From the NCBI GenBank assembly GCA_964016885.1, contig OZ024743.1:310124001-310188000 (forward strand): DNA of 64,000 bases, read 5' to 3'. Under the pieces are notes generated by a model. It searched no databases, was not told where the DNA came from, and saw nothing but the letters and a program-made list of their open reading frames with translations. Made by a program: the position numbers and the translations under genes. Positions 1,957 to 63,641 of the stretch are shown one piece after another (position 1 is the stretch's first letter; the number at the start of each line of letters is the position of its first letter). The stretch is from Eledone cirrhosa (Eukaryota).

Positions 1957-1999
1957 GTCACTGATGAGGTTACAGAATGTGTGACGAAAGAACTTTGAC
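1957..1999 (+). ncRNA. Type I hammerhead ribozyme
   Basis: gtca-CTGATGA-g-gttac/gtgac-GAAAG-aa-CTT-tgac; stems I and II pair. Confidence 0.75.
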
Positions 2000-22017: not shown

Positions 22018-22087
<70 letters not shown>

Positions 22088-23170
22088 TATGTAAGTATGT
22101 ATGTATACGTACATACATATATGTATACAGACGTCCAGTAGCATGTATATATATATACATACAGGCACACATACATATATGCACGTATCAGTTTACCGAA
22201 CATTTATTATAATGCTCGATTTGTTCGTTTGTAAACAAACAAACAGCCTGAATTGCGTCGTACAGTGTTTAGGCAACCACGTCACCTTTTTGTTCAACAC
22301 TGACACAGGAACGATGTACTAGTTTCAAGCTTATTAGCTATCGTCAGCACCGTATACCTTTCTGCCAGATGGTTGAACGTCCGAAAGTATATACTTTCCT
22401 TATGAAAATTAACGGCTGAGCAGCCTAATTTGCATATCGAGTGAGTTCAGTCGGCTAGGCGCCCCGAAGACGATAAATGGAATAGAATGAAACGAAATTT
22501 CATTTCTCACTCTTAGTACGGCACTTACTTAAATGTAAGTATGTATGTATACGTACATAAATATATGTATACAGACGTACAGTAGCATGTATATATATAT
22601 ACATACAGGCACATATACATATAGGCATGTATCAGTTTACCGAACATTTATTATAATGCTCGGTTTGTTAACAAACAAACAGCCTGAATTACGCCGTACA
22701 GTGTTTAGGCAACCATGTCACCTTTTTGTTCAACACTGACACAGGAACGATGTACTAGTTTCAAGCTTATTAGCTATCGTCAGCACCGTATACCTTTCTG
22801 CCAGATGGTTGAACGTCCGAAAGTATATACTTTCCTTATGAAAATTAACGGCTGAGCAGCCTAATTTGCATATCGAGTGAGTTCAGTCGGCTAGGCGCAC
22901 CGAAGACGATAAATGGAATAGAATGAAACGAAATTTCATTGCTCACTCTTAGACGGCACTTACTTAAATGTAAGTATGTATGTATACGTACATACATATA
23001 TGTATACAGACGTATACATACATACTTACATTTAAGTGTGCCTGTATGTATATATATACATGCTACTGTACGTCTGTATACATATATGTATGTACGTATA
23101 CATACATACTTACATTTAAGTAAGTGCCGTACTAAGAGTGAGAAATGAAATTTCGTTTCATTCTATTCCA
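22088..23170 (-). mobile_element. Family B retrozyme-like array: ~2.1 tandem 436-bp units plus a short inverted arm
   Basis: HHRs at 22311-22353 and 22747-22789 (-): cggtg-CTGACGA-tagct-aata-agctt-GAAAC-ta-GTA-catcg. Confidence 0.9.
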
Positions 23171-23226
23171 TATATAAATATATATTTATATATACATATA
23201 AATATATATTTATATATATATATATA

Positions 23227-23289
<63 letters not shown>

Positions 23290-23330
23290 ATATATATATA
23301 AATATATATTTATATATATATATAAATATA

Positions 23331-23387
<57 letters not shown>

Positions 23388-23391
<4 letters not shown>

Positions 23392-24368
23392 CCCTGGTTT
23401 CTGTTGAGCTCTGCTGATCAATGAAATTCCAACCGTGACCATCTCCACTGAAAGTTTTCATGAAATAGTCTTTTAAGACTATACAGAGCATTTGATGTTA
23501 TTCCAAATTGAAGGATAAGTGTTTCAAACTTTATTTTATCATGAGTTAAAGGTCTATAGATTTTTCCCTGGATTTTACTAAATTCTGTGGATGAATTTAT
23601 ATCCTGATTCTCTTTTGAGATGAGTTTGAATTATTTTTCCTAAATCTTTCGTTAACTACTTTTCCAATCTTGACGTTATAGTCGCATATATGTTATAGAA
23701 TGCCGTTAGCTTCTTGCTAAAACAATCTCTATACCTCTCATTTATATTTATACTCGGATTCTTTTCCTACAGTGCTTAAACTATCTGTGACTAATCCCGG
23801 TTTTTTTCATAAAACTGTGATAATTATTGCTATTTTGCTGAACTCCTTTGTAGAGTTTTTTTTCAGAATGTATTTGACTGCTATTTCTTGTAAATAAACA
23901 TTCACTTCTATCCTGACGTCACTAGCCCCGTTTTTTCCTCATGTGCTTTTTCATAAATACACATGAAGGCGAACTAGCCAGTTTTAGAATTCCCTTTTTC
24001 GGATTATATTACTGTGAGAGTCCTGGTTTCTGTTGAGCTCTGCTGATGAATGAAATTCCAACCGTGACCATCTCCACTGAAAGTTTTCATGAAATAGTCT
24101 TTTAAGACTATACAGAGCATTTGATGTTATTCCAAATTGAAGGATAAGTGTTTCAAACTTTATTTTATCATGAGTTAAAGGTCTATAGATTTTTCCCTGG
24201 ATTTTACTAAATTCTGTGGATGAATTTATATCCTGATTCTCTTTTGAGATGAGTTTGAGTTATTTTTCCTAAATCTTTCGTTAACTACTTTTCCCATCTT
24301 GACGTTATAGTCGCATATATGTTATAGAATGCCGTTAGCTTCTTGCTAAAACAATCTCTATACCTCTC

Positions 24369-24375
<7 letters not shown>
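23388..24375 (+). mobile_element. Family C retrozyme-like array: ~1.6 tandem 629-bp units
   Basis: HHRs at 23408-23489 (core mutated to CTGATCA) and 24037-24118. Confidence 0.9.
24037..24118 (+). ncRNA. Type I hammerhead ribozyme with all three stems well paired
   Basis: gctctg-CTGATGA-atgaaa..tttcat-GAAA-tagtctt-tt-aagacta-TA-cagagc. Confidence 0.9.
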
Positions 24376-24445
<70 letters not shown>

Positions 24446-24451
<6 letters not shown>

Positions 24452-26503
24452 TAACAGATTAAAGTTTAAGCAAAGAATCGCTGCTTTCACCCTTACCGGG
24501 TTCTTCTGAAACTAACAAAGTCAATCTGTAAAAGCAGAACTGGATATTTCAAAAACGTTGCAACCGGGGGAAGACAGGAAGACGATACTTTGGTTCGTGG
24601 AAACGTTCGCTGGCAAAGAACGGGAAAAAAACGAATTTAATACGTCATTAATAGGAGCGGTGAAAAACAATTACGCGCAAAGACAGAACCACGTTTATGG
24701 TATAAAAGAGGTCGTAGACTAATGTTCTCTTAGGTAGTGCATAGAGCCGTTCTCTGGCAATGAACGGAAAAACGAAGATAATACGTCATATGTGGAACGT
24801 GGAGAACAATAGCACGCAAAGACAAAACCACGTAAATGGTATAGCAGAAGTCGTAGACTAAAATTCTAACTAGGAGACCAAATGAATCACCGCTACAGAG
24901 TTAAGAACAAAGTAAATAAAAACAATACAGAAGTAATAGAAATAAATAAATACATACACGCAAACAAATACGTACATACACGAGCATACGTAAAAACTTA
25001 CCATAGGTATACAAAACCCCGCATATATAAATATGTGTGTGTGTGTATGCGTGTATACAAATAAATAAATAATTATATAAACGTATATAAATAAATAAAT
25101 AGGTATATAACAAGCGCACACACATACCTTCATATAAACACACGAATGTTCGGAGACGTAAGTCAACCAAAACATGAAGTACACATATACACACACCCGC
25201 TATACGTACGAACCATCATACTCAGACAGACGCAAAACTCCCGTATACTAATAGCCAAACCATATGTACCAGAATATATAAAATTATACGCCATACCAAT
25301 CAAATATACGTACGAGAAGGTATACGTACCTTCACAAAACATACGGGTAATATATACATACCTATGCAAATAAGTAAAGGTATAAAGAAAACATATACTG
25401 AACTCCCACATCAAGACGTAAAATATCCACGTATAGATCGTACTATCCGTTAGGGTATAACGTGGGGCTGTAATACAGGAAAGTTTTGTGCAATTTATGT
25501 TTACAAGCCGAAATTGCCTCAGATATTTTGTTTAAGATGTGGTCTGTGGCGTAGAGTATTTTCAGGGCCTCAGCGGCGCAAGGTCACATGGTCTTTTATT
25601 TCCGTTATACGATCTAGCCCTAGCTAGGCTCTCCCAGTGTAACTTATATTGGGTGTCGTTGTCTTTTAGACTCCAGATATAAGCTGAAAGTGACGTCATA
25701 TTCCTTCTAAGAGGGTAACGAAAAGAATGGGTATGCATGTAAAGACGCTGCTTGAAACTATTGGCGGTTAACCCTATGTAGGCCCTACGGGACGTGGGTG
25801 TTACAACCTTACATTTGTAGCCAATATTACTAGAGAAGTATTTCCCGGATAGAGGGCAATCACTCCGATTCCTGCAATTACAGTTAGTACTAACTACAGG
25901 GTTGCACGTGTTCCTACGGCTAGATAGTTTAGCTAAATTTGACGCTGTGATGTTATGTGCAAGGTTAGGAGTCGTAGAGAAAGAAATGTTAATAGTATTT
26001 CTATTAAAAATGTTACTATATTTATGTGTAGGGGGAAAATACTTCGTAATAAGGGAATGAAAGATCTTAGCTAATGGTGTGGCCACCTCCATATTATATG
26101 GTGGGTTATACCAACAAATACGACGGGGTCTATTACTTCTAGGTCTAATTCGTACTCTGTATATGCTACCTTATCGACAAATCCACTTCGAGCAAGAGCT
26201 TCATTGTAATAAGTGGAATGGTCGTTGAAAATACGTTCGTTGGTGGAAAGACGGGAAAGCCTCAACGAAACGTTTCTTACGAGGTTCTTGGTTATGCTGG
26301 CAGGATGGTTGGAATGCTTACTTATGTAATTAAGCGTATCATTCGGCTTTCTTACTGGTAATACAACCCATTCAATAAATTGAGGGTAACGTCGAGATTA
26401 ATAACGACCGAGAGATTGGCCTCAACCTGTATGGAGAGGTTGAAGCCTTTAAGGAAGGCTGTGAGTTCTTTTCTGAACCTGTCGCAAGCACGAGGTCCGC
26501 ACT
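24446..26503 (-). mobile_element. Hydra-like PLE family H4, 5'-truncated, with long 3'UTR
   Basis: ORFs 26071-26265 and 25562-26092 (CNCRNRSDCPL, AYIGLT, LHW, CDL); 3'UTR also at 47413-48210. Confidence 0.85.
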
Positions 26504-26505
26504 TA

Positions 26506-26593
<88 letters not shown>

Positions 26594-26599
26594 AATATA

Positions 26600-26641
<42 letters not shown>

Positions 26642-26728
26642 TATATATATTTATATTTATATATATATATATAAATATATATATATTTATATATATATAT
26701 ATAAATATATATTTATATATATTTATAT

Positions 26729-26819
<91 letters not shown>

Positions 26820-26821
26820 TA

Positions 26822-27048
26822 ATACGTAGTCTAGAAAGCCACAACAATGCAGATGGGAAATCTCGAGGTAGGAAGTGAATGATAGATAGGAGAAATAGGA
26901 AAATGTTAAATTGAGAGAGACATAGATGAAAACAATCTCCTGTCTATCATTCACTTCCTACCTCGAGATTTCCCATCTGCATTGTTGTGGCTTTCTAAAC
27001 TACGTATTTTACACATTTCACAATGCTTCTAGTAAACTTTAACACCCT

Positions 27049-27050
<2 letters not shown>
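26822..27050. repeat. Small inverted-repeat insert (~70-bp arms, ~43-bp spacer) in (TA)n
   Basis: 26822-26893 is the reverse complement of 26936-27006. Confidence 0.8.
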
Positions 27051-27122
<72 letters not shown>

Positions 27123-27207
27123 AATATATATTTATACATATATATATAAAAATATATATATATATATATAAATATATATTTATATATATGTATAAATATA
27201 TATATAT

Positions 27208-28035
27208 AAACGGAAAAAATGAAACGAAATTTCATTTCCCACTCTTAGTACGGCTGTTACTTTAATATAAGTATGTACACGTGCATACATATAGGTATAC
27301 AGACGTACAGTAGTATGTGTATATATATACATACACGCACACATATATATATATGTACGTATGGATTCACCGAACATTTATTATAATGCTCGGTGTGTTT
27401 GTAAACAAACATCCCGTATTAAGCCGTAGTGTCCAGCAACCATCGTTGCTCGTTTGTTCAACACTGAGAAAGGAATGCTGTACTAGTTTCAAGCTTATTA
27501 GCTATCGTCAGCAACGTATATCTTCCTGCCAGACATATATATGTGTGTGTGTATATATATATACATACTACTGTACGTCTGTATACATATATGTATGTAC
27601 GTGTACATACTTATATTTAAGTAACAGCCGTACTAAGAGTGGGAAATGAAATTTCGTTTCATTTTTCCGTTTATCGTTTTCGGTGCACCCGGCCGATTAA
27701 CCCACTCGATATGCAAATTGGGCTATTCAGCCGTTAATATGCATAAGGTAAGTATATACGTTCAACAATCTGGCAGGAAGGTATACGTTGCTGACGATAG
27801 CTAATAAGCTTGAAACTAGTACAGCATTCCTTTGTCAGTGTTGAATAAACGAGCAACGATGGTTGCTGGACACTACGGCTTAATACGGGATGTTTGTTTA
27901 GAAACACACCGAGCATTATAATAAATGTTCGGTGAATCAATACGTACATATATATAATATATGTGTGCGTGTATGTATATATATATACATACTACTGTAC
28001 GTCTATATACATATATGTATGTACGTGTACATACT
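27208..28035. mobile_element. Family B (second subfamily, ~423-nt unit), inverted pair
   Basis: HHRs at 27475-27517(-) and 27784-27826(+): gttg-CTGACGA..GAAAC-ta-GTA-cagc. Confidence 0.85.
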
Positions 28036-28037
28036 TA

Positions 28038-28074
<37 letters not shown>

Positions 28075-28332: not shown

Positions 28333-31300
28333 TTATCTCCAGCCTGCATAGGTTGGCCACTGGTGCAAGAGGGAGTTTGTTGCTGCTGCCCTTAGGTTTC
28401 CCTCGTGCCTTGTTTTGGGCCCATCCGGGATCCTGGATAGCAAGGTGTCAAGATGTTTCTTGAAGACATCCACCTCCACGTCATTCAAATCTCTCAGATC
28501 CCTCTGTAGCTTGTTCATGAGTTGAGGGCCCTTGAATTCCAGGCTATTGCAATACCTGCACCTTATTCTAGATGTGGAAGATGGGACCTTTAGCACCACC
28601 CAGTGACGTCCTGTTCGACGTTTGGTCCAGCTCCCAATGCCAAAGTTTCGTGCTAGTCCCTCCAGGATTTTCAACATGTAGATACCTGCGTATCTCTCCC
28701 GTCTCCCTTCCAAGGAGTAGAGGTTCAATTCTTTTAGCCTCTCCCAGTAGCTTGTCTCCTTCATCGTGGCAATCCTCTTGGTGTAGCTTCGCTGGATTGC
28801 CTCAAGCTCCGTGGTTAGTTTGACACTATGGGGTGCCCACAACTGGGAGCAATAGTCCAGGCGGCTTATGACAAATGTCCTCCATAGTGTCAACATGGTG
28901 TCTCGGTCCCTTGTCTGGAAAGTCCTCAAGATCCAGCCAGCGAGTCGTCAGCACATTGTCGCCAATTTTATGATGTTTAAGGAAAATATGCATCATCGCT
29001 CATGTCTATGCCCAGCTCTCGTATCGATTTTGACACGGGGATATCAGTCCCTCCTGGTCCTGTGTAGTTGTGTTCCACTATATTTGTGTTTGCAGGTTTG
29101 TTTGGAGGTTTGTATTGTAGGGCTTGGAATTTGCCAGCATTAAACTGCATGTTGTTTTCTTCCGCCCATTTGTATATTGCATCCAGATCTTGTTGTAAAA
29201 GGGCTGCGTCAGCCGGGTTTTTGATTGTCTGTGTTACCTTAGTGTCATCAGCATAGCTAGTGAGGGATGTTGTTGTATTTACTACAGAGGGCATGTCTGA
29301 GAGAACGACCAAAAGCAGTAGTGGTCCCAGGACTGTCCACTGGGGCACCCCACTTGTTATTGGTGTTTCCTTTGGGAAGGTCCCGTTTGCTGCGACTGTC
29401 TGGCTTCTGTCCTTTAGGAAGTCATGCAGCCACTCACCTACGTTTCCAGTTATGCCGAGTCCGTGTAGTTTGTGACATATCATTCCGTAGTCGACCTTGT
29501 CAAAGGCCTTCGCAAGGTCAAGATATATCACGTCCACATGTGAGCTGTTTAGCAGTTGTTTCGATACCCAGTCGTAGTGATGTAGCAGCTGTGTAAGGCA
29601 GCTTCTTCCTGGGCGGAAGCCATGCTGCGTGCTAGTCAGGCGGTCATTTTCCTCGAGGAAAGTGATCAGTTACTTTCTGACGACTCGCTCCATGACCTTA
29701 CTGATATGCGACGTCAGGGAGACTGGCCTATAGTTTTTGGCCTCCGCACTGCTACCTCCGTTATGGATAGGGCATATTGTGCCTTCTTTCAGCTCCCTGG
29801 TTAGTATACCGCTAGCCAAGGAGCTTCTGAAGAGCATCTTCAATGGAGTTGCTAAGGCCCGCTTACATGTTTTTAAGAGGACTGCTGGGAATCCATCAGG
29901 TCCAGCAGCTGAGTCTGTTCTAATTTTATCTATGGCGTACACCACATCCTCCTCCGTTATGTCTATATGGTTGATGGTCGCCATTTCTTCATGTAGTGTT
30001 GTGGCATCAAATAACTCCTCTGGCTTTGTTATTTGCATGTGCCTCAGTGGACTTGTGAACACACTTTTTTACTGTTCGTTCAGTATTTCACATATCTCTT
30101 GGGGATTCTCGGTTAATGAACCGTCAGTATGGAAGTGTACCGAGGCAGTTTCTTTTGCAAATTTAAAGAAGGGCTTAGGGTTTGTTTAAATGTTTTCTAT
30201 GGTCCTGCTCTCTTTCTTTACCCTCTCATTTTCATGGGAAAGTTTGAGTGCAATCTCGGTGCCAAGTAGTGCACGTTTCAAATAGGATTCCTTCTTGTTT
30301 TTTGTTTTCTTGTTGAGCATTCAACTGGTTTGAGAGCTTGATTCTACGTCTCATAAGGATTTTCCTATCTCTGGGAATAAGATTTTTGTGTCTGTTTGCC
30401 TTTTTCTCCGGGACAAACTTTTTGCATATAGTGTGTATCGTTGTCATGAAGTGTTGAAATTGTGTGTTAGTGTCTTGTGTGGCGGCGTTTTCACTCCATG
30501 TTTGCTTCCGGATTTCACTCTTAATCTTTTTTCCAGTTTGCCTTGTAGAAGTTAAGGCTGGATAACGTCCCGGAGCTTCTTGATGGTTTTGTCTCTGTTG
30601 GTTCTCTCGGACCATATAGCATTAGATCTACTACGTTATGATCCCACAGAATTGTTGGTGTCACCTTTAGATTGTGGACGAGCATTTCGTTGTTTATAAA
30701 ACAGAGGTCCAGGACATGTTCACCTCTTGTTGGGAGGAGTGTTGCTTGTTCCATGAACAGCCTGTGTGTGAGGGCCAGCAGGGATTCCGTCTGTCTCTGT
30801 TCTATTGACGTCATTCCAGGGAGGAGGTAGCCCTCATGCCATTTGACCTTTGGCAGGTTGAAGTCTCCCAGCAGTAGAATGTGAAGACCCTTATCCAGTT
30901 TGTCAAGGACCTCTTCTATCCTACTGAGGATATCCTCAAATTTACCCTCATGACTGGGAGCATCGGGCGGCCGATATGTGACACATATTACTGTCTGTAG
31001 TTGCTTCATATGTACTATCAGTGTGTCACAGACTGTTTGAATGTGTCAACAGTACAATTGGTGTGACATCTTCACGGATATACAGAGCAACCACACCATG
31101 AGTTATCTCCTTTCTGTTCGAACGAAATACTGTATATTTCGGTATATATATTTCTGCATCTGCTATACTGCTTGTCAGGTGCGTTTCGGTTAGTGCCATG
31201 CATAATGCTTGATTGCTTATGGCTAAGTCTCTCAAGTAGGAAATTTTACTCATGTTACTGAGTTTCACCAGGCCTCTGACATTCAGCAGCAGCATTGGTG
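28333..31300 (-). pseudogene. LINE ORF2 (APE endonuclease + RT), multiply frameshifted
   Basis: ORF-track fragments 31026-31427, 30521-31009, 30232-30615, 29670-30062, 28977-29537, 28333-28929. Confidence 0.9.
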
Positions 31301-32200
31301 TGACTTTTGGGGTGCCAGTAATGGCTGTCGGTATGACACCTGGTCTGGTGTCAGCGGCGGCCACTCTGGGTTCCTTAGCTGTGGTGGTCTCGAATGCTGG
31401 TGTGGGTGACTCTGGCTCTGGAAACAATGCAGCCAGGTCAGCTGGCCCACAATCTTCTCTGCCATCACTAACACATTTTTCTGCTCTGCTGCTGCCATCC
31501 GTATTTCGTCGGCATGTGCGTGCCTTATCCTTGTTGGTGCGGCACGCGCGACATCAGCATACTTCTGGAGCGGCTTGTTTCGGCTTCGGCTGGGGCATGT
31601 TGAGCGAGTAGGATGGGCATAGTTCGTTTGAGACCTGGGGTGAGCGAATCTGCATCCCATCCCTGTCTCTCCATGCCAGCAGGTCCCGTTCCTGAAAAAC
31701 TTGCACATTACTTGGGTTTTCTTGCTTCCAGTGTCTCGGTGCTTTCTGTTCTTCGTTTGAACAGTTGTCCACTGATCCCTCTACGCTTGGTTCTCCTTCG
31801 GAAGGTGATTTCGCTTTTCACCTTTACCTTTTGCTTGTTGCTTGCTCGGTCTGCCCTCCCTGACTGGGGAGGCGGGTGTCTCATCTTCTTTCAGGTCCGT
31901 GCTTGTGCTGTCCTCTTTTTCTTTTTCCTCTCTTTTCTCTTCGGTTTTCTCCTCCTTGAGGACGCGGCTTAGCATCGCCATATGTGGCGCTATGAGGACA
32001 TAGGCGTTCTCAATTTCTTTTCTTTTTCTCTTTATCTGTGCCAGGCTCTTCAGAAACCCATGGCTTTTCAGGATCTCCGCTATCTTTTTACTTGGTGGTG
32101 ACCCATCAGCCATGGTCCACCCCTTGATCAAAACCGCTAGTTCAATCTTTGACCAGTTTCGCTGACTCCTAATTTCACCTTTTTCCTGTATGCAGTCCAT
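31283..32200 (-). pseudogene. LINE ORF1 remnant with Myb/SANT-like domain, charged linker and CCCH zinc finger
   Basis: RNWSKIELAVLIKGW..KKIAEILKSHGFLKSLAQIKRKRKEI, then CKFFRNGTCWHGETGMGCRFAHP. Confidence 0.65.
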
Positions 32201-33241
32201 TTCGCTGTGGAGGGGAGAAAGAGAGATAGTGGAAAGGGTAGGGTAGATATTAGAGAGGGACAGAGGAAGATATAAGTCCAGTGAGAAATTAAGGAGCGAT
32301 TTAGAGGGAAAGAGAGAGAGAGAGCTTATGCGATCTCGACAGAGAGAAAAAGAAAAAGAAACAGAAGAAAAGAAAGGGGAGAGAGACAGAGGAGAGGAGC
32401 GAGAGAGATAGAGAGAGAGAGGAAGGAAGAAGGAGAGAGACAGAGACAGTGTGAGAAATTGCAATTCAGAAAGAGAGAGAACGGTCAAATAGAACTATAA
32501 ATATTACTAATAAATATCGTTCAAAGAATATTTCACGATTAAAACACCAAAACAAAGTGAACAGCAAATGATATCCATTTGAAATATAAAAGGAGACAGA
32601 ATAAATTAAGATAAAATGAAATAAAATAAGATAAATTTAAAACAAATTAAATGAATGAAACCTAAAAAGTTAAAGATATAGAAACACGATGTGAGTTGTA
32701 TAGAAGTTGATTTCAAATGTTTGTTTACAAATATAACTAACAAGAACCGTATAGAGTGACCGTAGTTATTGTAATATCAATATATCAAAAACAACAACAA
32801 ACACACATGCAAACCGAGTCAAAAATAAAAATAAAATTATATTAAATTAGATTATGTTACTCAGAATAAAACAAAATAATACAACATTTACTTAAATTAA
32901 ATTAAATTACGTACTAGCCTTCTATACTCTGTATGGTAGTCAAAGAAAGAAAGAAAGAAAGATAGAAAGCACGTGTGAGTGTTGTTTTTCGGAGAATATC
33001 ACACAGTGAAAATAAACATGTTTAAAACGCTAATATACGTAAAATATGCGTAAAGTAATCGCGTCAAAGCACAAAAACTTATCTTTTTTGTATGTTTTCC
33101 TTGTCTTCTGAAAAATTACAACCGTACATAAACCGATTACTGTCGATTTAAAATTTAAAATCTCAACGTTCAGCAATTCATGTCTGTACCAACAAGCTGC
33201 CAAGGCTATATATATATATATAAATAAATATATATAAATAT

Positions 33242-37827: not shown

Positions 37828-37909
37828 GGTAGCGTGGCCGAGCGGTCTAAGGTGCTGGTTTAAGGCACCAGTCTCTCCGGAGGCGTGGGTTCGAATCCCA
37901 CCGCTGCCA
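37828..37909 (+). tRNA. tRNA-Leu(AAG), gene or recent retrocopy
   Basis: GGTAGCGTGGCCGAGCGGTCTAAGG..CTGGT-TTAAGGC-ACCAG..GTGGGTTCGAATCCCACCGCTGCCA; 82 nt, long variable arm, intact A and B boxes. Confidence 0.92.
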
Positions 37910-45383: not shown

Positions 45384-46227
<844 letters not shown>

Positions 46228-55261: not shown

Positions 55262-55319
<58 letters not shown>

Positions 55320-55954
55320 AGGATGAATATAAAATGAAAGTGCTTTTGTTAAAAAGGAATTTATTAGGTATTGACATATGTTTCTGTAACAGACCGAATA
55401 CCTATGTATCGCTGCTTGCGTAATCATATAATGTTAGCAAGTATTCGATAGCAAATGTATAATCAGTTGTCACTTCTTCAGAGATTTTGGATAAACTGGA
55501 TAAAATCAGAAAAATTGAAGTATTTATATTAGTAAAAGAGGAAGGAACAGAGGGGATAGAATATGACAGATGGTAAAATAATTTACTGCTAAACAAGTAT
55601 ATAATGGGTTTTTAATGAGAATACCATGAGTAAATCTAAATAAGAATTTTGGGGGTGCCGATTTTAATCTCTACTTGACCAACTGGACAGTGGACAGGGC
55701 TGGTCATTTGGTGCAGTAGTATTAATCATAAAGTGTCAATTGGGGAAGGGGGAGATTTCGATTGCTACTAAATAACATCAATGCTAGTGGTCAGCTGGTA
55801 TTTGCTCTAGGGAATTGAATCAAAAAATCAGAAATCTCATTTTATCTATAGCAGTTTGTATTAAAAGGTAAATAATAGAAGAGTTGATAGAATTAAGACT
55901 AATAAAGAATGTTCATATCTATTTTGACAATCAAACGGGGATAGAGACAGGCGT

Positions 55955-58255
55955 TCAATCCTGGTAGTATTTATAATATGAAAATGTAGATTTTAAGCGA
56001 TGGTTACAGTATAACGATCGCTCTATTCTGTTATTTAATAAAATGTTTTTGGATTTCATAATACAAAATAATTCTACATTACATAATCTACAAAATTCCT
56101 GTCCATTGGAATATGGGGGGGGGGCAGTCGCTATTATATCCCATTTTAGGTGAAATTGTTGGTTATTTTCACGCAGCTGCCAAGCCTTGTCTGCGAGTGT
56201 TGTTACATAACGCTGGTTTTCATGTTTTATCGAATAACGATGTCTATAAAGGCGTGATTTAAAGGAGGTGGCTGTAGATCCCACATAGTACCACTTCTGT
56301 CTATCCGATTCGATAGTACATTTGTATACGATGTTGCGTTCAAGACACTGGTTGTTCAACGGACACATTCCTGGTTGGACACAGTTGCAATTACAATTTT
56401 GCGTTGTTGTATTGCCATGGATGGGTTGATGAGGTTGCTTATGTAGAACAGGATGTTGTTTGTTGTTTTGTGATGTTATAGCTAATGTTTTAAGTGTATT
56501 GTTATGTGTTGGAAGGCGTTTATACAACCGTTTTGCGTTAAGCATTTTTATATGTTGTTCAATATTAGGGGCGGTTGAATATGAAAGTCGGATGGTGTTA
56601 GGGTTTAAGATTTTATTATATTTATGTGATGTTGGAAAGTGTTTTCTAACTAATCGAAAGAATTTTGAGGGTAGATTGGTTTTAATAGATTTGTTATAGA
56701 CCGGGTTGTACCAGATATACTCCTTACATCGCCTTCTGTTTGGTGGTGTGCGACTATTATTGTGTCTATTGCGGTAGTGTATGTATGGTGGTGATTCTGT
56801 GCTATTTCTACTCCTATGTGATTTATTTTGGGTGTTTTGGTGATCATTGACTATATACTCTATATTATCTAGGTGACCGGCTTTCCTAAGTGCATCATCA
56901 TAATACTCGGCATGTTCTTTGAAGGTTTGTTGGTTGGACGATAGGCGGGAGATTCTAAGAGAAACATTTCTAGGGATGGATTTAATTATAGAGAGTGGAT
57001 GGTTAGAACTCGTATTTACATATTTAAGGTTCTCATTTAGTTTATGGAACGGTTTAATCGTATCTGTATTGAGATTGAAAGTAACATCAAGGAAATTGAC
57101 CTCTTTGAGGTTATATTCAAATGTAATATTTAATCCTAGTTCTTTAAAAAGTTTTCTGATATTTTTACGCATCCTTTCTAAATTCTGGTTATTCATATTC
57201 TTAACTAATAGGAGCGCATCGTCACGGTAAATTCCACCGTGGAGATCCTTGAATTTTCCTTGTAATCTGTGGGTGATATAAATTCCCACAAGATCTGTTA
57301 CCTCCGCCGAATCATTAGAACCCATAGTGATATCAAAATTAGAAGGTCTATCTTTGCGAACCCAGTAGCTATCATCGAATTTAACTATAGTTTTTCTCGC
57401 TTCCATAATAATTTTAATTTCAGCATCCGTAAGGTCGGAATTATCCTTAGCGAACGAAAGAGCTTCATGTAGAGTATCAGGTGAAATTGAGGAATAATAT
57501 TCATCAATATCAAACTGAATAAATTTTGATTTTTTCTTATCAGTAATGTTGTTAAACCATCTTATTGCTTCATGAGTGTTACCCCATAGTTTAATCTCTA
57601 CTTTAACCTTAACTTGGGGGATAATTCTGTCTAGTATATATTTGCTAATTTTACCTATATCTGATTTAGAGGGGCATATAAGTCTAATATTAGGGTTAGT
57701 ATCGAAGTTTACCTTGTGGTCCTTCAGGTTGAAGGATGGTATAGCTGGTGTTAAGGGTTGCGTTCTATCGTCAATACAAAGTTTTTTAACAATATCACAT
57801 GCCGAGTTGTTGATGTTTTTAAGTGTGGCTTCATTAGTTTTCCTGTATTTTTTATGCAATTCCTTACGGATGAAGTTATTGTAAGTGTCCACATCCATGG
57901 TATATACGTTTGATGTTTTGTCTGCTCTAACAATAACTCCATTGGCGTTTTTTAGATTATTGAGCAGTGCCGTGATGTCATTCTGTAGTTTATTGTTCTT
58001 ACGTTTTGTAAATTTGATCTCCATGATCATATCCATTAGGTCTTGTTCAAATGCATCCAAAAGTGGGTTTGAGGGTGGGTTCTTGTAAGATTTAAATCCA
58101 AATTTATCCTTGTTAAGATCCGATGTTTGGTTTATACGGCTTTTGTCAAAATGGAATGTTTTCCATCTGATTCGTCGAATAAAATCATTGGTCCTTCGTA
58201 TCATACCTAGAATATATTCCCTTTTTGCCTGAATAGGTATGTTTTTTAACGACAT
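55955..58255 (-). CDS. PLE RT + C-terminal GIY-YIG endonuclease, uninterrupted 766-aa frame from MSLKNIP
   Basis: FIQFDIDEYY, FDITMGS, IYRDDAL, NFLDV, CNC..CPL..C, IVYKC..YYVGST, KW, CRLC, LNNR.E, CNH; the extra N-terminus in the ORF track is read-through from the inversion junction. Confidence 0.9.
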   Translation of the reverse strand: MSLKNIPIQAKREYILGMIRRTNDFIRRIRWKTFHFDKSRINQTSDLNKDKFGFKSYKNPPSNPLLDAFEQDLMDMIMEIKFTKRKNNKLQNDITALLNNLKNANGVIVRADKTSNVYTMDVDTYNNFIRKELHKKYRKTNEATLKNINNSACDIVKKLCIDDRTQPLTPAIPSFNLKDHKVNFDTNPNIRLICPSKSDIGKISKYILDRIIPQVKVKVEIKLWGNTHEAIRWFNNITDKKKSKFIQFDIDEYYSSISPDTLHEALSFAKDNSDLTDAEIKIIMEARKTIVKFDDSYWVRKDRPSNFDITMGSNDSAEVTDLVGIYITHRLQGKFKDLHGGIYRDDALLLVKNMNNQNLERMRKNIRKLFKELGLNITFEYNLKEVNFLDVTFNLNTDTIKPFHKLNENLKYVNTSSNHPLSIIKSIPRNVSLRISRLSSNQQTFKEHAEYYDDALRKAGHLDNIEYIVNDHQNTQNKSHRSRNSTESPPYIHYRNRHNNSRTPPNRRRCKEYIWYNPVYNKSIKTNLPSKFFRLVRKHFPTSHKYNKILNPNTIRLSYSTAPNIEQHIKMLNAKRLYKRLPTHNNTLKTLAITSQNNKQHPVLHKQPHQPIHGNTTTQNCNCNCVQPGMCPLNNQCLERNIVYKCTIESDRQKWYYVGSTATSFKSRLYRHRYSIKHENQRYVTTLADKAWQLRENNQQFHLKWDIIATAPPPYSNGQEFCRLCNVELFCIMKSKNILLNNRIERSLYCNHRLKSTFSYYKYYQD

Positions 58256-58279
58256 ATCCAATTGGTGCCATAAATTATT

Positions 58280-59730
58280 ATGGAAGCGAGAAAAACTATA
58301 GTTAAATTCGATGATAGCTACTGGGTTCGCAAAGATAGACCTTCTAATTTTGATATCACTATGGGTTCTAATGATTCGGCGGAGGTAACAGATCTTGTGG
58401 GAATTTATATCACCCACAGATTACAAGGAAAATTCAAGGATCTCCACGGTGGAATTTACCGTGACGATGCGCTCCTATTAGTTAAGAATATGAATAACCA
58501 GAATTTAGAAAGGATGCGTAAAAATATCAGAAAACTTTTTAAAGAACTAGGATTAAATATTACATTTGAATATAACCTCAAAGAGGTCAATTTCCTTGAT
58601 GTTACTTTCAATCTCAATACAGATACGATTAAACCGTTCCATAAACTAAATGAGAACCTTAAATATGTAAATACGAGTTCTAACCATCCACTCTCTATAA
58701 TTAAATCCATCCCTAGAAATGTTTCTCTTAGAATCTCCCGCCTATCGTCCAACCAACAAACCTTCAAAGAACATGCCGAGTATTATGATGATGCACTTAG
58801 GAAAGCCGGTCACCTAGATAATATAGAGTATATAGTCAATGATCACCAAAACACCCAAAATAAATCACATAGGAGTAGAAATAGCACAGAATCACCACCA
58901 TACATACACTACCGCAATAGACACAATAATAGTCGCACACCACCAAACAGAAGGCGATGTAAGGAGTATATCTGGTACAACCCGGTCTATAACAAATCTA
59001 TTAAAACCAATCTACCCTCAAAATTCTTTCGATTAGTTAGAAAACACTTTCCAACATCACATAAATATAATAAAATCTTAAACCCTAACACCATCCGACT
59101 TTCATATTCAACCGCCCCTAATATTGAACAACATATAAAAATGCTTAACGCAAAACGGTTGTATAAACGCCTTCCAACACATAACAATACACTTAAAACA
59201 TTAGCTATAACATCACAAAACAACAAACAACATCCTGTTCTACATAAGCAACCTCATCAACCCATCCATGGCAATACAACAACGCAAAATTGTAATTGCA
59301 ACTGTGTCCAACCAGGAATGTGTCCGTTGAACAACCAGTGTCTTGAACGCAACATCGTATACAAATGTACTATCGAATCGGATAGACAGAAGTGGTACTA
59401 TGTGGGATCTACAGCCACCTCCTTTAAATCACGCCTTTATAGACATCGTTATTCGATAAAACATGAAAACCAGCGTTATGTAACAACACTCGCAGACAAG
59501 GCTTGGCAGCTGCGTGAAAATAACCAACAATTTCACCTAAAATGGGATATAATAGCGACTGCCCCCCCCCATATTCCAATGGACAGGAATTTTGTAGATT
59601 ATGTAATGTAGAATTATTTTGTATTATGAAATCCAAAAACATTTTATTAAATAACAGAATAGAGCGATCGTTATACTGTAACCATCGCTTAAAATCTACA
59701 TTTTCATATTATAAATACTACCAGGATTGA
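58280..59730 (+). pseudogene. 5'-truncated copy of the H1 ORF with a C9 frameshift
   Basis: ORFs 58280-59611 and 59542-59730. Confidence 0.9.
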
Positions 59731-60200
59731 ACGCCTGTCTCTATCCCCGTTTGATTGTCAAAATAGATATGAACATTCTTTATTAGTCTTAATTCTATCA
59801 ACTCTTCTATTATTTACCTTTTAATACAAACTGCTATAGATAAAATGAGATTTCTGATTTTTTGATTCAATTCCCTAGAGCAAATACCAGCTGACCACTA
59901 GCATTGATGTTATTTAGTAGCAATCGAAATCTCCCCCTTCCCCAATTGACACTTTATGATTAATACTACTGCACCAAATGACCAGCCCTGTCCACTGTCC
60001 AGTTGGTCAAGTAGAGATTAAAATCGGCACCCCCAAAATTCTTATTTAGATTTACTCATGGTATTCTCATTAAAAACCCATTATATACTTGTTTAGCAGT
60101 AAATTATTTTACCATCTGTCATATTCTATCCCCTCTGTTCCTTCCTCTTTTACTAATATAAATACTTCAATTTTTCTGATTTTATCCAGTTTATCCAAAA

Positions 60201-60320
60201 TCTCTGAAGAAGTGACAACTGATTATACATTTGCTATCGAATACTTGCTAACATTATATGATTACGCAAGCAGCGATACATAGGTATTCGGTCTGTTACA
60301 GAAACATATGTCAATACCTA
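60201..60320 (+). ncRNA. Atypical hammerhead motif in the H1 pLTR (also 63318-63437 + and 55365-55484 -)
   Basis: CTGAAGA-agtgaca..~75 nt..tgttaca-GAAAC-atat-GTC; stem I poorly paired. Confidence 0.6.
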
Positions 60321-60526
60321 ATAAATTCCTTTTTTAACAAAAGCACTTTCATTTTATATTCATCCTTTCTACATTTCTCCGGAATATAATTTATACTCGT
60401 TGAGCAAACCTGCACGTACGCTGTTCATCTCTAACGTAACGATATATTATCACTACATTATTGATAACCTGAAATTTTATTAATCTCCTATACAGTTGAG
60501 CAACTAATTCAGCATACGCTTCTAAA

Positions 60527-62847
60527 ATGGAAAGGCACCAATTGGATATGTCGTTAAAAAACATACCTATTCAGGCAAAAAGGGAATATATTCTAGGTAT
60601 GATACGAAGGACCAATGATTTTATTCGACGAATCAGATGGAAAACATTCCATTTTGACAAAAGCCGTATAAACCAAACATCGGATCTTAACAAGGATAAA
60701 TTTGGATTTAAATCTTACAAGAACCCACCCTCAAACCCACTTTTGGATGCATTTGAACAAGACCTAATGGATATGATCATGGAGATCAAATTTACAAAAC
60801 GTAAGAACAATAAACTACAGAATGACATCACGGCACTGCTCAATAATCTAAAAAACGCCAATGGAGTTATTGTTAGAGCAGACAAAACATCAAACGTATA
60901 TACCATGGATGTGGACACTTGCAATAACTTCATCCGTAAGGAATTGCATAAAAAATACAGGAAAACTAATGAAGCCACACTTAAAAACATCAACAACTCG
61001 GCATGTGATATTGTTAAAAAACTTTGTATTGACGATAGAACGCAACCCTTAACACCAGCTATACCATCCTTCAACCTGAAGGACCACAAGGTAAACTTCG
61101 ATACTAACCCTAATATTAGACTTATATGCCCCTCTAAATCAGATATAGGTAAAATTAGCAAATATATACTAGACAGAATTATCCCCCAAGTTAAGGTTAA
61201 AGTAGAGATTAAACTATGGGGTAACACTCATGAAGCAATAAGATGGTTTAACAACATTACTGATAAGAAAAAATCAAAATTTATTCAGTTTGATATTGAT
61301 GAATATTATTCCTCAATTTCACCTGATACTCTACATGAAGCTCTTTCGTTCGCTAAGGATAATTCCGACCTTACGGATGCTGAAATTAAAATTATTATGG
61401 AAGCGAGAAAAACTATAGTTAAATTCGATGATAGCTACTGGGTTCGCAAAGATAGACCTTCTAATTTTGATATCACTATGGGTTCTAATGATTCGGCGGA
61501 GGTAACAGATCTTGTGGGAATTTATATCACCCACAGATTACAAGGAAAATTCAAGGATCTCCACGGTGGAATTTACCGTGACGATGCGCTCCTATTAGTT
61601 AAGAATATGAATAACCAGAATTTAGAAAGGATGCGTAAAAATATCAGAAAACTTTTTAAAGAACTAGGATTAAATATTACATTTGAATATAACCTCAAAG
61701 AGGTCAATTTCCTTGATGTTACTTTCAATCTCAATACAGATACGATTAAACCGTTCCATAAACTAAATGAGAACCTTAAATATGTAAATACGAGTTCTAA
61801 CCATCCACTCTCTATAATTAAATCCATCCCTAGAAATGTTTCTCTTAGAATCTCCCGCCTATCGTCCAACCAACAAACCTTCAAAGAACATGCCGAGTAT
61901 TATGATGATGCACTTAGGAAAGCCGGTCACCTAGATAATATAGAGTATATAGTCAATGATCACCAAAACACCCAAAATAAATCACATAGGAGTAGAAATA
62001 GCACAGAATCACCACCATACATACACTACCGCAATAGACACAATAATAGTCGCACACCACCAAACAGAAGGCGATGTAAGGAGTATATCTGGTACAACCC
62101 GGTCTATAACAAATCTATTAAAACCAATCTACCCTCAAAATTCTTTCGATTAGTTAGAAAACACTTTCCAACATCACATAAATATAATAAAATCTTAAAC
62201 CCTAACACCATCCGACTTTCATATTCAACCGCCCCTAATATTGAACAACATATAAAAATGCTTAACGCAAAACGGTTGTATAAACGCCTTCCAACACATA
62301 ACAATACACTTAAAACATTAGCTATAACATCACAAAACAACAAACAACATCCTGTTCTACATAAGCAACCTCATCAACCCATCCATGGCAATACAACAAC
62401 GCAAAATTGTAATTGCAACTGTGTCCAACCAGGAATGTGTCCGTTGAACAACCAGTGTCTTGAACGCAACATCGTATACAAATGTACTATCGAATCGGAT
62501 AGACAGAAGTGGTACTATGTGGGATCTACAGCCACCTCCTTTAAATCACGCCTTTATAGACATCGTTATTCGATAACACATGAAAACCAGCGTTATGTAA
62601 CAACACTCGCAGACAAGGCTTGGCAGCTGCGTGAAAATAACCAACAATTTCACCTAAAATGGGATATAATAGCGACTGCCCCCCCCCATATTCCAATGGA
62701 CAGGAATTTTGTAGATTATGTAATGTAGAATTATTTTGTATTATGAAATCCAAAAACATTTTATTAAATAACAGAATAGAGCGATCGTTATACTGTAACC
62801 ATCGCTTAAAATCTACATTTTCATATTATAAATACTACCAGGATTGA
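60527..62847 (+). CDS. Full-length H1 RT-GIY-YIG ORF with one frameshift in a C9 run at ~62679-62687
   Basis: 733-aa ORF plus C-terminus in ORF 62659-62847. Confidence 0.88.
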
Positions 62848-63600
62848 ACGCCTGTCTCTATCCCCGTTTGATTGTCAAAATAGATATGAACATTCTTTAT
62901 TAGTCTTAATTCTATCAACTCTTCTATTATTTACCTTTTAATACAAACTGCTATAGATAAAATGAGATTTCTGATTTTTTGATTCAATTCCCTAGAGCAA
63001 ATACCAGCTGACCACTAGCATTGATGTTATTTAGTAGCAATCGAAATCTCCCCCTTCCCCAATTGACACTTTATGATTAATACTACTGCACCAAATGACC
63101 AGCCCTGTCCACTGTCCAGTTGGTCAAGTAGAGATTAAAATCGGCACCCCCAAAATTCTTATTTAGATTTACTCATGGTATTCTCATTAAAAACCCATTA
63201 TATACTTGTTTAGCAGTAAATTATTTTACCATCTGTCATATTCTATCCCCTCTGTTCCTTCCTCTTTTACTAATATAAATACTTCAATTTCTCTGATTTT
63301 ATCCAGTTTATCCAAAATCTCTGAAGAAGTGACAACTGATTATACATTTGCTATCGAATACTTGCTAACATTATATGATTACGCAAGCAGCGATACATAG
63401 GTATTCGGTCTGTTACAGAAACATATGTCAATACCTAATAAATTCCTTTTTTAACAAAAGCACTTTCATTTTATATTCATCCTTTCTACATTTCTCCGGA
63501 ATATAATTTATACTCGTTGAGCAAACCTGCACGTACGCTGTTCATCTCTAACGTAACGATATATTATCACTACATTATTGATAACCTGAAATTTTATATA

Positions 63601-63641
<41 letters not shown>

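What the first reader, a model, noticed from the sequence alone, without database searches (positions are those of the whole stretch)
22088..28035. Family B: 423-436-nt hammerhead repeats in two subfamilies with compensatory stem I
Seen: an identical core CTGACGA-tagctaataagctt-GAAAC-ta-GTA occurs in four copies (22311, 22747, 27475, 27784). Stem I is cggtg/catcg in one subfamily and gttg/cagc in the other, while the flanks have diverged. Both also keep a GAAATGAAATTTCGTTTC hairpin and ATGCAAAT. The palindromic stem III (ACTAGT) suggests dimeric double-hammerhead cleavage in tandem transcripts (inference).
Basis: partly seen in the sequence, partly recalled or inferred. Interest (0 to 1): 0.75.

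Follow-up and report, generated by a model that had tools for sequence, protein, structure and literature searches.

The report
Hammerhead retrozyme repeat, Penelope-style insertions
This is a very abundant, non-coding jumping repeat of about 430 bases that carries a hammerhead self-cutting RNA motif, a kind of element already known in animals; the motif is kept more intact than the rest of the repeat, is predicted to cut only when two copies pair, and the copies sit in the genome the way Penelope-type retrotransposons do.

Summary
The 31-nt core occurs four times in the window and about 33,000 times in the 3.0-Gb genome. It reads as a type I hammerhead. All core nucleotides are present. Stem II has a U.U at its base, and stem III is one A-U pair on a palindromic CUAG loop.

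In 26 loci sampled without reference to the core, the hammerhead domain has a third of the substitutions of the rest of the unit. One stem I pair takes four pair types. The tolerated CUGAUGA variant outnumbers the dead CUGACAA variant 527 to 217.

Copies have fixed 3' ends in (TA)n and variable 5' ends. They form tandem arrays, and 17 of 42 complete loci are head-to-head pairs. Where both outer ends are canonical, one is at unit position ~217 and the other at ~277 (11 of 11). This is Penelope-like insertion anatomy.

Each unit also holds a U6-like promoter motif.

The best reading is a young non-LTR retrozyme, a new member of a known kind. Cleavage, circles and transcription were not tested: no RNA run was served. 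The scan noted this same family before on other DNA of this genome (e1-8665316, e1-8802647).

The parts
22086..23091 (-). Left arm of insertion 1: about 2.2 tandem units (unit position 125 through two hammerheads to 223). The outer 3' end is at site A, next to (TA)n.
   Evidence: nhmmer of the 436-nt unit against the window; direct repeats at 436-nt spacing
22291..22371 (-). Hammerhead domain, copy 1 (core 22317-22347). The predicted cut follows GUA, between 22317 and 22316 on the minus strand.
22727..22807 (-). Hammerhead domain, copy 2 (core 22753-22783), identical to copy 1.
23037..23174 (+). Right, inverted arm of insertion 1 (unit positions 140-279, no hammerhead). The outer 3' end is at site B, next to TA-rich repeat.
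   Evidence: hairpin at 23142-23159
27209..27544 (-). Left arm of insertion 2 (unit positions 373-435 then 2-277; core 27481-27511). The outer end is at site B.
27531..28039 (+). Right arm of insertion 2 (unit positions 131-435 then 2-215; core 27791-27821; hammerhead domain 27767-27847). The outer end is at site A, next to (TA)n.
27711..27759 (+). U6-like promoter module: ATGCAAATTGG, then a conserved block, then a TATA-like GTATAT. The same module lies on the minus strand at 22387-22435 and 22823-22871.
   Evidence: the block at unit 328-368 is 96-98% identical in core-independent samples
27643..27660 (+). Hairpin GAAATGAAATTTCGTTTC inside the 60-nt 'tail' between the two 3' end sites. Also at 22489, 22925, 23142 and 27221.
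55315..63615 (.). Context: a co-resident Penelope-like element as two head-to-head arms (ORFs 55955-58420 minus, 60500-62728 plus). Its two outer ends differ and both lie in (TA)n.

Best explanation
Family B is a young, very abundant non-coding retroelement of the animal non-LTR retrozyme kind, whose type I hammerhead is predicted to cut multimeric transcripts into unit-length RNA.

Shown by calls or sequence:
- The repeat unit is 424-436 nt and has about 33,000 copies.
- The hammerhead core is intact and is the best-kept part of the unit.
- Copies have two fixed 3' ends, variable 5' ends, (TA)n targets, tandem arrays and head-to-head pairs.

Inferred:
- With helix III reduced to one pair on a palindromic loop, two hammerheads of a tandem transcript would pair through ACUAGU. 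This would form a double hammerhead that cuts after GUA.
- The released unit, with its ends held together by the long stem I, would likely be joined into a circle by a host RNA ligase.
- A Penelope-like reverse transcriptase/GIY-YIG enzyme would copy it into breaks in (TA)n. Priming would be at two short U/A stretches 60 nt apart, often from both DNA ends of one break, and going round more than once would give arrays.
- A U6-like promoter module just upstream of the ribozyme may drive transcription.
For: 1. Hammerhead anatomy. C3 U4 G5 A6 C7 G8 A9, G12 A13 A14, A15.1-U16.1 and A17 are all present. Stem I is 5 bp, then an internal loop, then AAGG/CCUU and CUGGCA/UGUCAG. Stem II is AGCU/AGCU with loop AAUA.

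2. Selective conservation. In 26 independent loci sampled by a 23-nt anchor 90 nt downstream, not by the core, the hammerhead domain has 34 substitutions in 1356 sites (2.5%). The rest of the unit has 613 in 8188 (7.5%). The directly adjacent unit positions 22-42 are the most variable.

3. Stem I pair 2.3-1.3 takes UG 20, GU 6, AU 5 and CG 1 of 34 distinct sequences, with 2 unpaired. The same haplotypes fill 100 listed genome copies.

4. CpG test at C7-G8. The tolerated T7 variant has 527 exact copies and the catalytically dead A8 variant 217. On contig C1 I counted by eye about 74 against 35 loci. T7 is shared within 10 multi-copy loci in its first 100 rows, A8 within 2-3.

5. Insertion anatomy.
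- 3' ends cluster at unit positions 212-220 and 269-280, mostly against (TA)n (51 ends).
- 5' ends are spread over the unit.
- 17 of 42 complete loci are head-to-head. 11 of the 11 with two canonical ends are one A plus one B. Both window loci obey this.
- These are the features described for Penelope-like elements: 5' truncation, partial tandems, an inverted 5' copy, a tail at one end and microsatellite targets (PMC8557442, passages).

6. [quoted passage not shown] It has the same two-armed, two-ended, (TA)n anatomy.

7. The sense unit folds to -132.5 kcal/mol, z = -5.5, and is closed by stem I. The antisense gives z = -3.5.

8. Precedent. Axolotl retrozyme hammerheads have a one-pair helix III with a palindromic tetraloop (Amex1) or a U.U at the base of helix II (Amex2). 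They cleave well only as dimers and occur as circles (PMC7229834).
Against: - No Rfam hammerhead model reaches its gathering score. There was none at gathering, and HH9 scored 15-16 bits against 52 at E about 0.1 on 100-nt searches.
- Only 1 of 20 modelled pairs covaries. The family is young, at 96% mean column identity.
- The U.U at 10.1/11.1 and the one-pair helix III are weakening features.
- The dead A8 variant is also shared within 2-3 multi-copy loci.
- The variant count aimed at dimer pairing was weak: ACUGGU 66 against ACCAGU 43.
- 29 of 42 complete loci hold a single hammerhead and could not release a unit on their own.
- No excess of 5' ends at the cleavage site was seen.
- No RNA data could be examined.
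- No autonomous element sharing sequence with Family B was found.
- The Fisher p-values treat sites as independent, though subfamily variants are shared by descent.
Confidence: 0.72

Rival explanations
1. The hammerhead is a decayed relic. The repeat spreads as a Penelope-dependent, SINE-like element whether or not it cuts itself, and the core is kept for another reason. That reason could be that it lies next to the promoter-like module or is bound by the reverse transcriptase.
For: - Rfam scores are below threshold.
- There is a U.U at the base of helix II and a one-pair helix III.
- Only one pair covaries.
- A8 variants occur in a few multi-copy loci.
- Most loci have one hammerhead.
Against: - All 13 core positions are intact in the majority sequence.
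- T7 exceeds A8 by 2.4-fold at one CpG, which another role would not predict.
- The stem I pair changes on both sides and stays paired.
- The same weak features occur in axolotl ribozymes that do cut (PMC7229834).
Confidence: 0.13
2. The element and enzymes are the same, but the template is linear, not circular. Either read-through multimeric transcripts of existing arrays are copied, or the reverse transcriptase jumps from the 5' end of one cut unit to the 3' end of another. Either would give seamless arrays without any RNA circle.
For: - Autonomous Penelope-like elements also form partial tandems (PMC8557442).
- The window's own Penelope-like element is two-armed without being a small circle.
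- Junctions in arrays cannot tell a circle from a multimer.
Against: - Both fixed 3' ends lie inside the ribozyme-delimited unit rather than at the cut end. A cut linear unit would be expected to prime at position 436.
- Circles are the documented product of related retrozymes (PMC7229834).
Confidence: 0.2
3. Family B is plain satellite DNA, amplified by unequal crossing-over or replication slippage, with a hammerhead-like motif by chance.
For: Long arrays exist, for example 37 hammerhead-bearing units at C1:53354362-53370557.
Against: - About 33,000 copies are dispersed over all large contigs.
- 29 of 42 complete loci carry a single hammerhead site.
- Copies have two fixed 3' ends, variable 5' ends and (TA)n targets.
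- The reversed control pattern has 0 matches.
Confidence: 0.03

Closest known systems
Metazoan non-LTR retrozymes (Cervera and de la Pena 2020, PMC7229834, results section read), especially the axolotl Rtz331/Rtz353 and newt satellite 2 repeats
   Same: - A type I hammerhead sits in tandem repeats of 150-450 bp at very high copy number.
- GC is low (35-38%).
- There is no LTR, PBS or PPT.
- Helix III is a single pair with a palindromic tetraloop, as in HHR_Amex1.
- There is a U.U at the base of helix II, as in HHR_Amex2.
- The unit is highly self-paired.
- Penelope-like elements are co-resident.
   Different: - Both weakening features are combined in one ribozyme.
- The sequence is unrelated as far as tested, and the host is an invertebrate-like, AT-rich genome.
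- The cut triplet is GUA.
- RNA circles and cleavage are shown for the published families and not for this one.
Penelope-like elements and their non-autonomous derivatives (Craig et al. 2021, PMC8557442, passages; Li, Clavereau and Pollet 2026 preprint 10.64898/2026.07.22.740005, abstract and results part 1)
   Same: - Frequent 5' truncation, partial tandems and an inverted 5'-truncated copy.
- An extension ('tail') at only one end.
- Microsatellite, here (TA)n, targets.
- A hammerhead in the repeated part.
   Different: - There is no ORF.
- The tail is 60 nt here against the 30-40 bp described.
- No sequence shared with an autonomous element was found here, so the partner is not identified.
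snRNA-type promoter of newt satellite 2 (Coats, Zhang and Epstein 1994; seen only as a sentence and reference in PMC2220036; the paper itself is not held)
   Same: A hammerhead-bearing repeat carries an internal snRNA-gene-like promoter with an octamer motif.
   Different: - The newt promoter is reported as Pol II type. Here the motif matches this genome's own U6 and U6atac upstream element and has a TATA-like box, which would predict Pol III.
- The spacing is 42 nt against 46-48 in the U6 genes.
- Transcription was not tested.

Membership tests
Hammerhead ribozyme, type I | Conserved core: C3 U4 G5 A6 N7 G8 A9, G12 A13 A14, A15.1-U16.1, H17 | tested here: met
   All are present in the four window copies and in the genome majority: CUGACGA ... 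GAAA ... GUA|C
Hammerhead ribozyme, type I | Three helices around the core, with helix I open and helices II and III closed | tested here: inconclusive
   Helix I (5 bp plus extensions) and helix II (4 bp plus U.U) are present. Helix III is one A-U pair on a CUAG loop in a monomer, and reaches 6 bp only between two copies.
Hammerhead ribozyme, type I | Match to a curated Rfam hammerhead model at its gathering score | tested here: not met
   No hammerhead hit at gathering. Hammerhead_HH9 scores 15.4 and 16.0 bits against 52.
Hammerhead ribozyme, type I | Covariation that supports the helices | tested here: inconclusive
   1 of 20 pairs changes on both sides (four pair types), and 96.0% of cells are paired. 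Slid controls give 35-48% paired. The family is too young for more.
Hammerhead ribozyme, type I | Site-specific self-cleavage | not testable with these tools
   No RNA run was listed. The runs that were laid are contigs, which cannot show RNA ends.
Animal non-LTR retrozyme | Type I hammerhead in tandem repeats of about 150-450 bp, many copies, low GC, no LTR/PBS/PPT | tested here: met
   Units are 424-436 bp. Arrays hold up to 37 hammerhead-bearing units. There are 33,331 core matches. GC is 0.35-0.38. LTR/PBS/PPT were judged by reading the unit, not by a dedicated search.
Animal non-LTR retrozyme | Expressed as unit-length linear and circular RNA | not testable with these tools
Animal non-LTR retrozyme | Co-resident autonomous Penelope-like elements | tested here: met
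   [quoted passage not shown] Its nearest Atlas clusters carry GIY-YIG, RVT_1 and HTH_animal. Pfam itself gave no hit.
Penelope-type insertion anatomy | 5' truncation, partial tandems, inverted 5' copy, tail at one end, microsatellite target | tested here: met
   compared with passages of PMC8557442
U6-type (type 3, Pol III) promoter | The proximal element of this genome's own U6 genes, with a TATA box at the U6 distance | tested here: inconclusive
   ATGC[A/T]AAT lies at -76 to -78 and TATA at -30 in 4 of 4 U6 loci with such an upstream region. The 4 are two dispersed loci and two variants of one tandem cluster. Three other inspected U6 loci (L109 and L114 of that same cluster, and L116) show no octamer motif, and L117 shows neither a clear octamer nor a TATA box at that position. 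The best U6atac locus has ATGGAAATTAGG at the same place. Family B has ATGCAAATTAGG plus TATATAC, but 42 nt apart instead of 46-48. Half of the sampled copies read TGG for TAG.

The most novel reading that the evidence does not exclude
Each unit is a complete small U6-type gene whose upstream promoter travels with it because the ribozyme-cut RNA is a circle. Penelope enzymes copy that circle from both DNA ends of one (TA)n break. They start at two fixed sites 60 nt apart that are always used one each. This would make the long-proposed rolling-circle retrotransposition of retrozymes readable from genome sequence alone.
Probability: 0.3. Interest if true: 0.65.

Novelty: new member of a known kind. 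Interest (0 to 1): 0.4.

Why it matters
Retrozymes are thought to move through small RNA circles copied by borrowed Penelope enzymes, but that step has not been shown. This family is young, has tens of thousands of copies, and has sharply defined ends. Three of its features turn parts of that model into countable predictions:
- the strict one-A-plus-one-B rule of its two-armed insertions;
- the excess of the tolerated over the dead core variant;
- the U6-like promoter module.

It also offers a natural hammerhead that combines two weakening features, a U.U at the base of helix II and a one-pair helix III, for tests of dimeric cleavage. The kind of element itself is already known.

Tried and rejected
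- **Rfam.** At gathering thresholds over the whole window, only a tRNA was found. At E up to 10 over the window, Family B was not listed. Most hits are microRNA models matching TA-rich hairpins, taken as chance.
- **RNA evidence.** No RNA holder was listed. Laying runs X1 and X4 gave only short contigs of unknown kind, with no ends or joints of use.
- **Autonomous partner.**
  - nhmmer of the unit against the window found only Family B copies.
  - A genome pattern for the 3' hairpin with a foreign upstream context gave 119 matches. The 100 listed read mostly as Family B copies with small indels or point changes, and none was followed up as a distinct element.
  - The reverse transcriptase next door (28333-32494, minus) is a LINE with an AP-endonuclease domain, not a Penelope-like element.
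- **Dimer-specific selection test.** The wobble-keeping ACUGGU variant has 66 copies and the pair-breaking ACCAGU 43. This is too weak to count.
- **Pol III terminator idea.** 46 of 60 aligned fragments have a run of 5 or more T after the hairpin. Insertions extend a few bases past it, and the window's first subfamily lacks it, so this was left open.
- **5' ends at the cleavage site.** This would be a footprint of cut linear RNA, and none was seen. Three of 24 one-armed loci seem to start within or just before the core instead, which is unexplained.
- **A neutral control CpG for the T7/A8 test.** Not run, because the candidate sites are themselves subfamily markers.
- **Literature.**
  - Coats et al. 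1994 is not held.
  - A search for hammerhead ribozyme or retrozyme together with cephalopod, octopus or squid was ranked by terms held. Its 15 listed papers gave only Craig et al. 2021 with both kinds of term. This is not a full check that the family is unpublished.
  - Supplements of the papers were not opened.


Full report
**Observation**

The core CTGACGATAGCTAATAAGCTTGAAACTAGTA stands exactly four times in the window:
- 22317-22347 (minus)
- 22753-22783 (minus)
- 27481-27511 (minus)
- 27791-27821 (plus)

The first two copies are 436 nt apart in a tandem array. The last two face each other head to head. The second subfamily's unit is 424 nt. Aligned, the two subfamilies are about 85% alike, with differences scattered over the unit. 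Both keep the hairpin GAAATGAAATTTCGTTTC and ATGCAAAT.

Chance is excluded. A loose hammerhead pattern gives 20 window matches against 1.5 expected. The core matches 33,331 places at up to 2 mismatches in the 3.0-Gb genome, and its reversed control matches none.

**Anatomy of the motif**

Read on the sense strand, the motif is a type I hammerhead.
- Stem I: 5' strand CGGUG or CGUUG, 3' strand CAUCG or CAGCG.
- Core: CUGACGA, then GAAA on the far side of stem II.
- Stem II: AGCU/AGCU with loop AAUA, flanked by a U.U.
- Helix III: A-U closing CUAG.
- Cut site: GUA, with the predicted cut after it.
- Stem I continues through an internal loop (UAUA/UU) into AAGG/CCUU and CUGGCA/UGUCAG.

Every nucleotide of the conserved core is present.

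Rfam does not call the motif. Nothing appears at gathering, and Hammerhead_HH9 reaches only 15-16 bits against 52 on 100-nt searches. Its alignment nonetheless lays out the same helices.

As a monomer, helix III is a single pair. Between two copies, ACUAGU pairs with itself over 6 bp. The nested double hammerhead is computed at -35.8 kcal/mol (first subfamily) and -32.4 (second). This compares with 2 x -9.5 and 2 x -7.8 for closed single folds.

**Is the ribozyme under selection?**

The family is young: mean column identity is 96% over 34 distinct hammerhead domains. From the 39 distinct sequences I dropped 5 whose 5' or 3' stem strand is replaced by flank or deleted. Covariation is therefore thin. 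One of 20 pairs changes on both sides: UG 20, GU 6, AU 5, CG 1, unpaired 2.

Three other tests were made.

- *Core-independent sampling.* I sampled copies by a 23-nt anchor 90 nt downstream, so that the core was not a condition.
  - From 60 loci I kept one per 30-kb cluster, giving 27. Of these, 26 gave a usable alignment. In 2 of them the upstream part, an inverted junction, was masked.
  - The hammerhead domain has 34 substitutions against the majority in 1356 sites (2.5%). The rest of the unit, without the anchor, has 613 in 8188 (7.5%).
  - The adjacent positions 22-42 are the most variable part.
  - The p-value (7e-14) overstates the case, because subfamily variants are shared by descent.
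- *CpG asymmetry.* The CpG at C7-G8 should decay equally to T7, which any hammerhead tolerates, and to A8, which kills it. Exact counts are 527 and 217. On contig C1 I counted by eye about 74 against 35 loci. T7 is shared within 10 multi-copy loci in the first 100 rows and A8 within 2-3, so T7-bearing templates were copied more often.
- *Dimer-specific pairing.* A→G in the loop keeps a wobble in the dimer, while U→C breaks it. The counts are 66 against 43, which I do not count as support.

**The repeat as a retroelement**

Across 90 fetched stretches, the unit's 3' ends fall in two narrow classes (51 ends). Most of these ends run into (TA)n.
- Site A, unit positions 212-220: ...ACATACTTATAT|(TA)n.
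- Site B, unit positions 269-280: ...TTTCATTTTTTCCGTTTAT|(TA)n.

The 5' ends are spread over the whole unit.

Of 44 loci, 42 lay wholly inside the fetched DNA.
- By hammerhead sites, 29 loci have one, 7 have two, 2 have three, one has 9, one has 37 and 2 have none.
- By arrangement, 17 are head-to-head pairs, 1 has another two-strand arrangement and 24 are one-armed.
- In the 11 pairs where both outer ends are canonical, one end is A and the other B. There is no A+A and no B+B.
- The other 6 pairs have one or two non-canonical ends.

Both insertions in the window obey this rule: 223/279 and 277/215.

These are the traits described for Penelope-like elements (PMC8557442, passages):
- strong 5' truncation;
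- partial tandems;
- an inverted 5'-truncated copy;
- an extension present at only one end;
- microsatellite targets.

The window itself holds such an element at 55.3-63.6 kb.
- It has two head-to-head arms.
[quoted passage not shown] Pfam gave no hit.
- Its two outer ends differ and both lie in (TA)n.
- It shares no detectable sequence with Family B, so the partner remains unidentified.

**Whole unit and promoter-like module**

The sense unit folds to -132.5 kcal/mol (z = -5.5), with stem I closing the molecule. The antisense gives z = -3.5.

Outside the ribozyme, the best-kept block is unit positions 328-368. It lies between ATGCAAAT (position 318) and TATATAC (position 360).

I compared this with the genome's own snRNA genes.
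- Four of four U6 loci with a promoter-like upstream region have ATGC[A/T]AAT at -76 to -78 and TATA at -30. The four are two dispersed loci and two variants of one tandem cluster.
- The other inspected U6 loci do not fit the pattern. Two units of that same cluster (L109, L114) and L116 show no octamer motif. L117 shows neither a clear octamer nor a TATA box at that position.
- The best U6atac locus has ATGGAAATTAGG at the same place.
- U1 genes differ.

Family B reads ATGCAAATT[A/G]GG, but its spacing to TATA is 42 nt, not 46-48. A start about 30 nt after the TATA would fall near position 390-395, just before the ribozyme core at 406.

This is a lead, not a finding. The newt hammerhead satellite is reported to use an snRNA-type promoter. 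I saw that only as one sentence and a reference in PMC2220036.

**Comparison and verdict**

The closest known are the animal non-LTR retrozymes.
- The axolotl families show a one-pair helix III with a palindromic tetraloop, or a U.U at the base of helix II.
- As monomers they cut poorly (6% and 22% in an hour). As dimers they cut well.
- They occur as circles, which a tRNA ligase forms efficiently in vitro (PMC7229834, results read).
- A 2026 preprint links retrozymes to the terminal repeats of Penelope-like elements in vertebrates (abstract and results part 1 read).

Family B fits this kind on every feature that sequence can show. I file it as a new member.

What is not shown:
- cleavage;
- circles;
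- transcription;
- the enzyme that moves it.

Earlier scan notes e1-8665316 and e1-8802647 describe the same family at other places in this genome. My counts were made independently of them.

Noticed in passing
window 34756-34800 (-): A minimal hammerhead (CTGATGAGTCCTTAATAGGACGAAAC...) scores 29.1 bits on Rfam Hammerhead_1, below the gathering score of 34. It is a different family from B.
   Followed up: no
window 9082-9109 (-), 41477-41504 (-), 42623-42650 (+), 1961-1989 (+): A further repeat family has CTGACGATGTTGCAGATGTGCAACGAAA, or a related form, that is not followed by a normal helix III. Earlier scan notes describe rearranged hammerheads in this genome.
   Followed up: no
window 55315-63615: A Penelope-like element lies as two head-to-head arms. 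[quoted passage not shown] Its two outer ends are about 117 nt apart in element coordinates, both in (TA)n. No canonical hammerhead pattern was seen in it.
   Followed up: partly
window 28333-32494 (-): A decayed LINE with an AP-endonuclease domain (1.3e-11) and a reverse transcriptase (2.5e-20) abuts the Family B copy on the opposite strand.
   Followed up: partly
window 37828-37909 (+): A tRNA gene with a long variable arm scores 53.7 bits.
   Followed up: no
window 23388-23687 and 24017-24316: Two 300-nt copies are 99% identical at 629-nt spacing, between the two Family B insertions.
   Followed up: no
window 45475-45602 and 26854-26974: Long, near-perfect hairpins are hit by plant microRNA models well below their thresholds. 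They are probably inverted-repeat transposon ends.
   Followed up: no
G000 C19:31.78-31.84 Mb (L105-L122): A tandem cluster of U6 genes has a period of about 1.8 kb. Some units carry the ATGCTAAT/TATA upstream region, and others have a different, GC-richer upstream sequence.
   Followed up: partly
L019 about 1978-2058, L020 about 1908-1988, L026 about 1475-1555: Three of 24 one-armed Family B loci begin within or a few bases before the ribozyme core, at unit positions about 402-409. This is more than an even spread would give. It is unexplained.
   Followed up: partly
G000 C1:53354362-53370557 (L065-L085): A 16-kb two-armed Family B array holds 37 hammerhead-bearing units, and many units share the same CpG-decayed anchor variant.
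   Followed up: partly
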